The notes beneath the pieces are model-generated. The model was not told where the DNA came from. It saw nothing but the letters and a program-made list of their open reading frames with translations, and did not search any database. DNA of 64,000 nucleotides from Escherichia coli (GTDB lineage Bacteria; Pseudomonadota; Gammaproteobacteria; Enterobacterales; Enterobacteriaceae): assembly GCF_024298765.1 (NCBI RefSeq), contig NZ_CP101210.1, one strand, 5' to 3'. How positions within the stretch are numbered: the stretch's first letter is position 1; the number at the start of each line of letters is the position of its first letter. The position numbers and the translations under genes are program-made. Shown piece by piece: positions 26,317 to 27,069 of this stretch.

Positions 26317-27069
26317 GTTGTCACCCTGGACCTGGTCGTACATTTAAGAAATTAAATCATTTCAACTTGGTTGTTAACGCAACCTGTATTTTGTTAACGC
26401 TGCGTTACGATGGAAAGTATGTCTGCGGAAATATTTTTAATAACTCACCCGCGCGTTGTATTTTTCTTTTTTTGTTCATACCAAAGTATTAAAACTCACG
26501 TAAATACGCTGTTATCTACGCAAAAAATATTTTGTTTTCTTTTAAATCTCCGTTTTCCGCTATCAAAAATCACCAGACAATCATTCTTCTTGCCCGTCGC
26601 TGATTGCTGCGATATGTCTTGCGCACAAGCCGTGACAAACCTCGTCTTTTTGCAGTAAAAAATTGTCCACGGAGGTGTGGAGAAAAAACAAGAACGTTTT
26701 ACATGACGAAAGGACTACACCGAAATATTTTTTATATGCATTATTAGTAAGTTAGCACCATTTGTATGATTTTTTAAAATTGTGCAATAAAAACCAAATG
26801 TACAACTTTTCTATCATTTCTAAACTTAATAAAACCTTAAGATTAACATTTTAATATAACGAGTTACATTTAGTTACATGTTTAACACTTGATTTAAGAT
26901 TTGTAATGGCTAGATTGAAATCAGATGTAATCCATTAGTTTTATATTTTACCCATTTAGGGCTGATTTATTACTACACACAGCAGTGCAACATCTGTCAG
27001 TACTTCTGGTGCTTCTATTTTAGAGGCAGCTGTCAGGTGTGCGATCAATAAAAAAAGCGGGGTTTCATC
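26317..27069. promoter_or_regulatory. Divergent csgBAC / csgDEFG intergenic control region
   Basis: About 750 bp AT-rich ORF-poor spacer between divergent csgB and csgD; known to integrate several global regulators. Individual sites not mapped here. Confidence 0.8.

What the first reader, a model, noticed from the sequence alone, without database searches (positions are those of the whole stretch)
26317..27069. Long curli intergenic control region
An AT-rich ~750 bp divergent promoter region between csgB and csgD, one of the most heavily regulated intergenic regions known. Strain-specific substitutions here commonly change curli and biofilm phenotype, so it is worth comparing.
Basis: established knowledge. 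Interest (0 to 1): 0.25.

Follow-up and report, generated by a model that had tools for sequence, protein, structure and literature searches.

The report
Ordinary curli csgB–csgD control region
This is the well-known 753-bp regulatory DNA between the divergent E. coli curli operons csgBAC and csgDEFG, with every core control element intact and only ordinary natural polymorphisms.

Summary
csgB (minus strand) starts at 26316 and csgD (plus strand) at 27070. The gap of 753 bp has 34% G+C, against 50% for the window.

It is 99.1% identical to the 754-bp K-12 MG1655 region and 100% identical to at least 40 complete E. coli genomes, many from poultry.

These elements are identical to K-12:
- the csgD -35/-10 hexamers and the OmpR/RstA box
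- the MlrA-type palindrome
- the 148-nt csgD leader, which is the target of several small RNAs
- the csgB-proximal promoter block with a CsgD-box match

The -10 is wild-type TAGATT, not the constitutive O157:H7 43895 allele.

Seven positions differ from K-12. Five are K-12-side changes or common polymorphisms. Two (26496 C>T, 26580 G>A) are restricted to about 2% of genomes and lie in the poorly conserved centre.

Only one difference touches a published site. The G>A at -80 breaks the MqsA palindrome and sits at the edge of a CpxR box, inside an IHF footprint. That A allele is present in 47% of complete genomes.

Verdict: already known, ordinary, low interest. A modest quantitative effect of the haplotype cannot be excluded without reporter assays.

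The parts
25861..26316 (-). csgB coding sequence (left flank; curli minor subunit)
   Evidence: ORF list. The protein is identical to K-12 CsgB. Homologous loci are annotated csgB.
26317..27069 (.). csgB-csgD intergenic control region, 753 bp, 34% G+C
   Evidence: It is 99.1% identical to K-12 and present in 5371 of 5426 complete E. coli genomes.
26392..26466 (-). Cross-genus conserved block upstream of csgB (the csgBAC promoter region). It contains CGGGTGAGTTA at 26441-26451 on the minus strand, a perfect match to the CsgD-box consensus CGGGKGAKNKA.
   Evidence: Identity to the window across Citrobacter, Enterobacter and Salmonella is 83-84%, against 35-50% in the centre of the spacer. Motif scan. 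The consensus is recalled from memory (Zakikhany et al. 2010) and was not found in the paper library.
26496..26496 (.). Lineage-restricted SNP: T here, C in K-12 and in the 10 other E. coli panel strains
   Evidence: The T allele is in 89 of 5426 genomes. It lies in a poorly conserved bin and in the N5 spacer of a weak CpxR-like match. T is also the state in E. whittamii and other divergent Escherichia.
26580..26580 (.). Lineage-restricted SNP: A here, G in K-12 and in the 10 other E. coli panel strains. Position -342 from the csgD start.
   Evidence: The A allele is in 115 of 5426 genomes. It lies in the least conserved part of the spacer, 35% identity across genera.
26522..26527 (.). Homopolymer A-run: A6 here, A7 in K-12, A5 to A8 among the strains compared
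26473..26473 (.). T here and in 10 of 12 panel strains. The A of K-12 is the minority, K-12-side state.
26570..26570 (.). T here and in 9 of 12 panel strains. K-12 has G and O157:H7 has A.
26755..26755 (.). G here (-167 from the csgD start) and in 8 of 12 panel strains. K-12 and three other panel strains (O91, O111:H8 and 510016) have T. The position lies inside the published H-NS footprint (+28 to -201).
   Evidence: Footprint coordinates as quoted in PMC4894380.
26776..26810 (.). MlrA-type palindrome AAAATTGTGCA-N12-TGTACAACTTT, identical to K-12
   Evidence: The block -155 to -106 is 81% conserved across genera. The consensus is from memory (Ogasawara et al. 2010).
26833..26844 (.). Degenerate MqsA palindrome AACCT TA AGATT (K-12: AACCT TA AGGTT). 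The SNP is at 26842, which is -80.
   Evidence: PMC4894380 gives the palindrome at -78, CpxR boxes at -68 to -80 and -90 to -102, and IHF at -37 to -96. A 41-mer carrying the A allele matches 2534 of 5426 genomes.
26863..26886 (+). OmpR/RstA box GTTACATTTAGTTACATGTTTAAC, centred near -47.5, identical to K-12
   Evidence: One mismatch to the OmpR consensus quoted in PMC6611641. Perfect match to the RstA box TACATNTNGTTACA, which is recalled from memory.
26889..26916 (+). csgD core promoter: -35 TTGATT (26889-26894), 16-bp spacer, -10 TAGATT (26911-26916)
   Evidence: The -10 is invariant in all 31 sequences from 6 genera. It is the wild-type allele, not the TAGAAT of O157:H7 43895 (PMC7232329).
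26922..27069 (+). csgD 5' untranslated leader (148 nt), target of McaS, RprA, GcvB, OmrA/B and Hfq. Its first 92 nt (26923-27014) match Rfam RF02752, ES056.
   Evidence: Identical to K-12. Rfam hit of 119.7 bits, E = 5e-23. ES056 is a 92-nt RNA-seq transcript whose 5' end is 1 nt from a mapped start site (PMC4676190). The consensus fold keeps the small and large stem-loops, with a few compensatory pairs. Leader biology from PMC6061853.
27070..27720 (+). csgD coding sequence (right flank; biofilm master regulator)
   Evidence: Two substitutions versus K-12, P19 and A110.

Best explanation

**How it works (established knowledge).** The csgD promoter is read mainly by sigma-S RNA polymerase and starts at about 26922. 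OmpR, MlrA, IHF and RstA activate it. CpxR, H-NS and others repress it. The 148-nt leader is then targeted by Hfq-dependent small RNAs. CsgD protein in turn activates the csgBAC promoter at the other end of the spacer.

**What is shown here.** In this window every core element is sequence-identical to K-12. I therefore infer normal, conditionally regulated curli expression (stationary phase, low temperature, low osmolarity), not a constitutive or dead allele.

**The variants.** The seven differences from K-12 are natural polymorphisms of a minority haplotype found unchanged in roughly 40 to 89 complete genomes. They are most likely neutral or of small quantitative effect.
For: - **Identity and boundaries.**
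- **Core elements unchanged.** The region from -79 through the whole leader is identical to K-12 and includes the OmpR/RstA box, the -35/-10 hexamers and the start site; the MlrA-type palindrome upstream of the -80 SNP is also identical. The -10 TAGATT is invariant across 31 sequences from 6 genera. The leader start is corroborated by the Rfam ES056 hit at 26923.
- **Conservation profile.** Conserved blocks are 26392-26466, -155 to -106, and -55 through the leader. None of the seven variant positions falls in these best-conserved blocks.
- **Direction of change.** In a 12-strain panel only 26496T and 26580A are private to the window.
- **Allele frequencies.** 89, 115 and 2534 of 5426 genomes carry the window alleles at 26496, 26580 and 26842.
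- **Exact allele.** At least 40 genomes carry it unchanged. The record at about rank 91 is already down to 99.2% identity.
- **No known switch mutation.** The O157:H7 43895 -10 change is absent. The conserved C of the OmpR site is kept.
- **Divergence.** The spacer differs from K-12 by 0.93%, within the range of the flanking csg genes at 0.2-2.4%.
Against: - Nothing here measures transcription or protein binding. Site coordinates come from papers on K-12, and some consensus motifs come from memory.
- The -80 G>A change removes one base of the MqsA palindrome and lies at the edge of a CpxR box, inside an IHF footprint.
- In Salmonella Typhimurium D23580, SNPs at -80 and -189 of the homologous promoter lowered activity about three-fold. 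A quantitative effect relative to K-12 is therefore plausible.
- About half of the listed carriers of the rare haplotype come from poultry. This could reflect either lineage or selection.
Confidence: 0.92

Rival explanations
1. The haplotype is regulatory, not neutral. The -80 A allele weakens MqsA repression, and possibly CpxR repression, or alters IHF bending. The two lineage-restricted SNPs in the centre change DNA curvature or a weak CpxR-like site. Strains with this allele, many of them avian pathogenic, would then express curli differently from K-12.
For: - The SNP at 26842 changes AGGTT to AGATT in the palindrome that MqsA binds specifically.
- The same position overlaps the CpxR box edge at -68 to -80 and the IHF footprint at -37 to -96.
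- SNPs at -80 and -189 reduce Salmonella csgD promoter activity three-fold.
- 26496 lies within a two-mismatch CpxR-like match at 26490-26504.
- Roughly half of the listed carriers of 26496T are poultry isolates.
- A 2026 preprint reports promoter signatures that separate rdar (red, dry and rough colony) phenotypes in clinical isolates.
Against: - The -80 A allele is carried by 47% of complete genomes, so it cannot be a special property of this strain.
- The palindrome is not conserved even in other Escherichia species.
- Deleting mqsR, cpxR, rstA or rcdA left curli reporter expression at wild-type level in a systematic K-12 study (PMC12713406).
- 26496 falls in the unspecified spacer of the CpxR-like match, and T is also the state in other Escherichia species.
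- 26580 lies in the least conserved segment.
- The poultry enrichment is confounded by clonal lineage.
Confidence: 0.2
2. The long spacer hides an unannotated gene in its central part, either a small protein or an independent small RNA with its own terminator.
For: - Mechanical ORFs of 41, 82 and 47 aa on the plus strand and 48 aa on the minus strand lie in or overlap the spacer.
- Two terminator-like hairpins were found where 0.5 is expected.
- Rfam lists ES056 as an sRNA.
Against: - The 82-aa ORF spans the A5-A8 homopolymer and is frameshifted or truncated in K-12, S88, ST2747 and IR53017. It stops at codon 10 in most other genera.
- The 41-aa and 47-aa ORFs lose their start codons or gain early stops outside E. 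coli.
- The hairpins have 5-6 pairs, and panel variation in the one at 26666-26681 is not compensatory.
- ES056 is simply the 5' part of the csgD leader, starting at the csgD start site.
- An Rfam E-value search found nothing else.
Confidence: 0.02

Closest known systems
E. coli K-12 MG1655 csgD-csgB intergenic region (between b1040 and b1041, NC_000913.3 1103197-1103950)
   Same: - Same flanking genes and orientation, and 99.1% identity.
- Identical -35/-10, OmpR/RstA box, MlrA-type palindrome, 148-nt leader and csgB-proximal block.
   Different: - 753 bp versus 754 bp.
- Six substitutions and one A-run length change.
- The MqsA palindrome is imperfect here.
Constitutive csgD promoter allele of E. 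coli O157:H7 ATCC 43895 / FB38 (Uhlich 2001; PMC7232329)
   Same: Same locus and the same -10 hexamer context.
   Different: That allele carries a single A-to-T change (AATCT to ATTCT on the csgB-sense strand, that is TAGATT to TAGAAT), which makes curli constitutive. The window keeps TAGATT.
Salmonella enterica csgD (agfD) control region, and the homologous spacers of Citrobacter and Enterobacter
   Same: - Same gene arrangement and nearly the same length, 752-770 bp.
- Conserved -10, -35 region, OmpR direct repeats, MlrA block, leader stem-loops and csgB-proximal block.
   Different: - Only 59-70% identical overall.
- The central 250-300 bp is essentially unalignable in sequence.
- The -35 is TTGCTT instead of TTGATT.

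Membership tests
E. coli curli csgBAC/csgDEFG divergent control region | Lies between divergently transcribed csgB and csgD | tested here: met
   csgB runs 25861-26316 on the minus strand and csgD 27070-27720 on the plus strand. The products are identical or near-identical to K-12 CsgB and CsgD.
E. coli curli csgBAC/csgDEFG divergent control region | About 754 bp, AT-rich, homologous to the K-12 spacer over its full length | tested here: met
   753 bp, 34% G+C, 99.1% identity end to end. Found in 5371 of 5426 genomes.
E. coli curli csgBAC/csgDEFG divergent control region | csgD core promoter (-35 TTGATT, 16-bp spacer, -10 TAGATT) with a start site about 148 nt upstream of the ATG | tested here: met
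   The sequence is identical to K-12. The 5' end of Rfam ES056 is at 26923. The -10 is invariant in 31 sequences. Transcription itself was not measured.
E. coli curli csgBAC/csgDEFG divergent control region | OmpR activator site just upstream of the -35 | tested here: met
   26866-26883 matches ACNTTTNGNTACANNTAT with one mismatch and is identical to K-12.
E. coli curli csgBAC/csgDEFG divergent control region | MlrA palindrome upstream of the OmpR site | tested here: met
   26776-26810 is identical to K-12 and lies in an 81%-conserved block. The consensus is recalled from memory.
E. coli curli csgBAC/csgDEFG divergent control region | Long structured csgD leader carrying the small-RNA and Hfq sites | tested here: met
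   The 148 nt are identical to K-12. The consensus fold over 22 distinct sequences keeps stem-loop I and the large stem-loop II, with some compensatory pairs. Published model in PMC6061853.
E. coli curli csgBAC/csgDEFG divergent control region | CsgD-responsive csgBAC promoter with a CsgD box | tested here: met
   CGGGTGAGTTA at 26441-26451 on the minus strand, inside an 83-84% conserved block. The consensus is from memory and the csgB start site was not mapped here.
E. coli curli csgBAC/csgDEFG divergent control region | Binding by OmpR, CpxR, IHF, H-NS, MlrA and others, and conditional curli expression | not testable with these tools
   This needs footprinting or EMSA, reporter fusions, and Congo-red or CsgA assays.
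MqsA-repressed csgD promoter (Soo & Wood 2013) | Perfect palindrome 5'-AACCT TA AGGTT-3' at -78 | tested here: not met
   The window has AACCT TA AGATT, with the SNP at 26842. A 41-mer carrying this allele matches 2534 of 5426 genomes.
Constitutive (sigma-70-type) csgD promoter-up alleles of O157:H7 | Point mutation in the -10 hexamer (TAGATT to TAGAAT) | tested here: not met
   The -10 at 26911-26916 is TAGATT.

The most novel reading that the evidence does not exclude
The minority haplotype defined by 26496T and 26580A occurs in 1.6-2.1% of complete genomes, and about half of the listed carriers are from poultry. On this reading it is an adaptive regulatory allele. It would retune csgD or csgBA expression in avian pathogenic lineages, for example at bird body temperature, through the little-studied central part of the spacer.
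Probability: 0.06. Interest if true: 0.3.

Novelty: already known. Interest (0 to 1): 0.08.

Why it matters
It matters little beyond annotation. The region is a textbook regulatory hub, and this copy carries no known phenotype-switching mutation. It predicts a normally regulated, curli-competent locus: csgB, E, F and G are identical to K-12, and csgA, C and D differ by 1-2 residues. Three results may be useful as by-products:
- a base-resolution map of the known elements in this window
- allele frequencies showing that the K-12 MqsA palindrome is missing in about half of E. coli
- a cross-genus conservation profile showing which parts of the 750-bp spacer are under constraint

Tried and rejected
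- **First outgroup scan.** A species-representative genome scan with the E. coli OmpR-box 24-mer found nothing. None of the outgroup loci fetched later contains that exact 24-mer, so the pattern was too E. coli-specific. A leader 26-mer then returned 24 loci.
- **Primary papers not held.** The papers with footprint coordinates are not in the library: Jubelin 2005 and Uhlich 2001. Coordinates were taken second-hand from PMC4894380, PMC3535384 and PMC7232329.
- **CsgD-box consensus.** A text search for CGGGKGAKNKA found nothing, so that motif rests on memory.
- **Small ORFs in the spacer.** Examined and rejected, because they are not conserved and are frameshifted by a variable homopolymer.
- **Terminator-like hairpins.** The hairpins at 26369-26384 and 26666-26681 are short, and panel variation in the second is not compensatory. 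I treated them as chance.
- **Generic promoter scan.** It found two promoter-like sites against 3.5 expected and missed the real csgD promoter, so it was uninformative in this AT-rich DNA.
- **Weak consensus matches.** The CRP, IHF and CpxR consensus scans gave only weak matches and were not used as evidence of sites.
- **2026 preprint.** The preprint on promoter signatures gives no positions in its text, so the window allele could not be assigned to its phenotype classes.

Full report
**1. Observation**

The window sequence and ORF list show csgB on the minus strand, with its start codon at 26314-26316. csgD is on the plus strand and starts at 27070. The finding's coordinates, 26317-27069 (753 bp), are therefore exactly the intergenic stretch.

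CsgB, CsgE, CsgF and CsgG are identical to K-12. CsgD differs at two residues (P19, A110). CsgA has one extra glycine and T62A. CsgC has two substitutions.

G+C is 34.1% for the spacer and 24.9% for 26700-26960, against 50% for the window. The gene order clsC-ymdB-ymdA-csgCAB / csgDEFG-ycdZ-ycdY matches K-12 in reverse orientation.

**2. Comparison with K-12 and the species**

The spacer aligns end to end with the 754-bp MG1655 spacer, with six substitutions and one A-run length change:

| Window position | Window | K-12 | Note |
|---|---|---|---|
| 26473 | T | A | |
| 26496 | T | C | |
| 26522-26527 | A6 | A7 | homopolymer |
| 26570 | T | G | |
| 26580 | A | G | |
| 26755 | G | T | -167 from the csgD start |
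| 26842 | A | G | -80 from the csgD start |

Everything from -79 to the csgD ATG is identical to K-12. So are the first 156 bp next to csgB.

A megablast of the spacer finds it in 5371 of 5426 complete E. coli genomes. At least 40 are 100% identical, and the record at about rank 91 is already down to 99.2%. The identical records include many poultry and APEC isolates (O78:H4, O2-211), as well as human, pig, dog and water isolates.

I aligned a 12-strain panel: K-12, O91, O111:H8, ST131 JJ1887, O157:H7, S88, O139:H1 and five others. Only 26496T and 26580A are private to the window. At 26473, 26570 and 26755 the window carries the majority state. The A-run varies from A5 to A8. At 26842 the A allele is in 7 of 12 strains.

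I then used 41-mer queries in which every 28-base seed spans the SNP. These give 89 genomes with 26496T, 115 with 26580A and 2534 with 26842A, out of 5426.

**3. Map of known elements**

Taking the published 148-nt leader, the csgD start is at 26922.
- This is consistent with the statement that the MqsA palindrome ends 78 bp upstream of the start site (PMC4894380). The palindrome spans 26833-26844.
- It is also consistent with the Rfam hit ES056 at 26923-27014 (119.7 bits). ES056 is a 92-nt RNA-seq transcript whose 5' end is 1 nt from a mapped start site (PMC4676190). It is therefore the 5' part of the csgD leader, not a separate gene.

The core promoter is -35 TTGATT (26889-26894), a 16-bp spacer, and -10 TAGATT (26911-26916). 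The single A-to-T change that makes O157:H7 43895 constitutively curliated converts this -10 to TAGAAT (PMC7232329). The window has the wild-type base.

Other elements:
- The OmpR/RstA box at 26863-26886 is intact (consensus quoted in PMC6611641).
- The MlrA-type palindrome at 26776-26810 is identical to K-12.
- A perfect match to the CsgD box, CGGGTGAGTTA, lies at 26441-26451 on the csgB strand. This consensus is recalled from memory and could not be confirmed in the library.

**4. Conservation across genera**

A scan of species-representative genomes with a leader 26-mer returned 24 loci from Escherichia species, Citrobacter, Enterobacter, Salmonella diarizonae, and Raoultella- and Leclercia-labelled MAGs. 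In the 19 loci whose csgB start could be located, the spacer is 733-770 bp long.

Identity to the window in 25-bp bins shows conserved blocks at:
- the csgB ribosome-binding region (97%)
- 26392-26466 (83-84%)
- -155 to -106 (81%)
- -55 to -6 (88-91%)
- most of the leader (68-94%)

The centre, 26492-26616 and 26667-26741, is only 33-51% identical.

None of the seven K-12 differences falls in these best-conserved blocks. The two lineage-restricted SNPs lie in bins with 51% and 35% identity. At 26496 the window's T is also the state in E. whittamii and three other divergent Escherichia lineages.

The MqsA palindrome is not conserved outside part of E. coli. A consensus fold of 22 distinct leaders keeps the small stem-loop and the large central stem-loop, with a few compensatory pairs. 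This agrees with the published model (PMC6061853).

**5. Significance of the variants**

Only the -80 G>A change alters a specified base of a published site.
- It changes AGGTT to AGATT in the palindrome that MqsA binds.
- It lies at the edge of the CpxR box (-68 to -80), inside the IHF footprint (-37 to -96) and inside the H-NS region (+28 to -201). All coordinates are as quoted in PMC4894380.

Because 47% of genomes carry A, this is a property of half the species rather than of this strain. A systematic K-12 study also found that mqsR, cpxR, rstA and rcdA deletions left csgBA reporter expression at wild-type level (PMC12713406).

A modest effect still cannot be excluded. In Salmonella Typhimurium D23580, SNPs at -80 and -189 lowered csgD promoter activity about three-fold (PMC6611641).

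26496 sits in the unspecified spacer of a two-mismatch CpxR-like match. 26580 hits no motif I could name.

**6. Rejected alternatives**

The ORFs that lie wholly inside the spacer (41, 82 and 47 aa on the plus strand) are not conserved. The 82-aa ORF is broken by the variable homopolymer in several E. coli strains. The terminator-like hairpins are short, and the panel variation in one of them is not compensatory. No other Rfam family matches.

**7. Verdict**

The region is already known and this copy is ordinary:
- all core control elements are intact
- no known promoter-up or promoter-dead mutation is present
- the haplotype is a natural minority one, shared unchanged by about 40-89 sequenced genomes

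The spacer differs from K-12 by 0.93%, within the range of the flanking genes at 0.2-2.4%. Interest is low.

The one open point is whether the rare 26496T/26580A haplotype, which is frequent among poultry isolates, has any regulatory effect. Only reporter assays and a lineage-corrected association test can answer that.

Noticed in passing
window 10654-14952: A 4.3-kb insertion splits the efflux-pump gene mdtG, with about 7 bp of K-12 sequence present on both sides and imperfect inverted ends (GGTCCCTAAACAC / GTGTATTTAGGGA). It encodes a 511-aa large serine recombinase (Resolvase + Recombinase + Zn-ribbon domains), a 189-aa resolvase/invertase and a 227-aa coiled-coil protein, plus about 1.1 kb (12.2-13.3 kb) with no ORF over 60 aa. 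At least 80% of it is found in only 6 of 5426 complete E. coli genomes. The best match is chicken strain 104.
   Followed up: partly
window 33109-35670: The K-12 segment holding pgaABCD, dgcT, IS3, ymdE and ycdU (about 11 kb between phoH and serX) is absent. It is replaced by 2.5 kb holding frameshifted IS3-family transposase remnants and a DUF2726 protein. This strain therefore lacks the PGA polysaccharide operon and the DgcT diguanylate cyclase next to the curli locus. The same layout is described for some commensal and UPEC strains in PMC5635171.
   Followed up: partly
window 32683-33108: Overlapping self-similar matches with a period of about 181 bp to K-12 1096961-1097583, next to tRNA-Ser serX, indicate a tandem-like repeat array.
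   Followed up: no
window 56502/56503: yccE (K-12 1063938-1065198) is missing relative to K-12.
   Followed up: no
window 25362-25820 (csgA): CsgA is 152 aa: one extra glycine in the N-terminal glycine run, and T62A, relative to K-12.
   Followed up: no
L008 (E. coli 43905, urine), aligned to window 26862-26871: This clinical isolate has a 10-bp deletion that removes one of the two GTTACAT repeats of the OmpR/RstA box. That predicts loss of csgD activation. Strain 510016 has GTTACA changed to GTTGCA in the same box, and the O157:H7 strain has two substitutions at its upstream edge.
   Followed up: no
window 27050-27056 and 26522-26527: Two A-runs vary in length between strains. The one just before the csgD Shine-Dalgarno sequence is A6 in ST131 JJ1887, A7 here and A8 in IR53017. 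It coincides with the single-stranded A-tract described as Hfq site II in PMC6061853. The central run ranges from A5 to A8.
   Followed up: no
E. coli genome search with window 26317-27069: 55 of 5426 complete genomes have no match to the spacer. Another 42 cover less than 80% of it; for example, S1-CAM-01-A keeps only 61 bp. Six matches lie on records labelled as plasmids.
   Followed up: no
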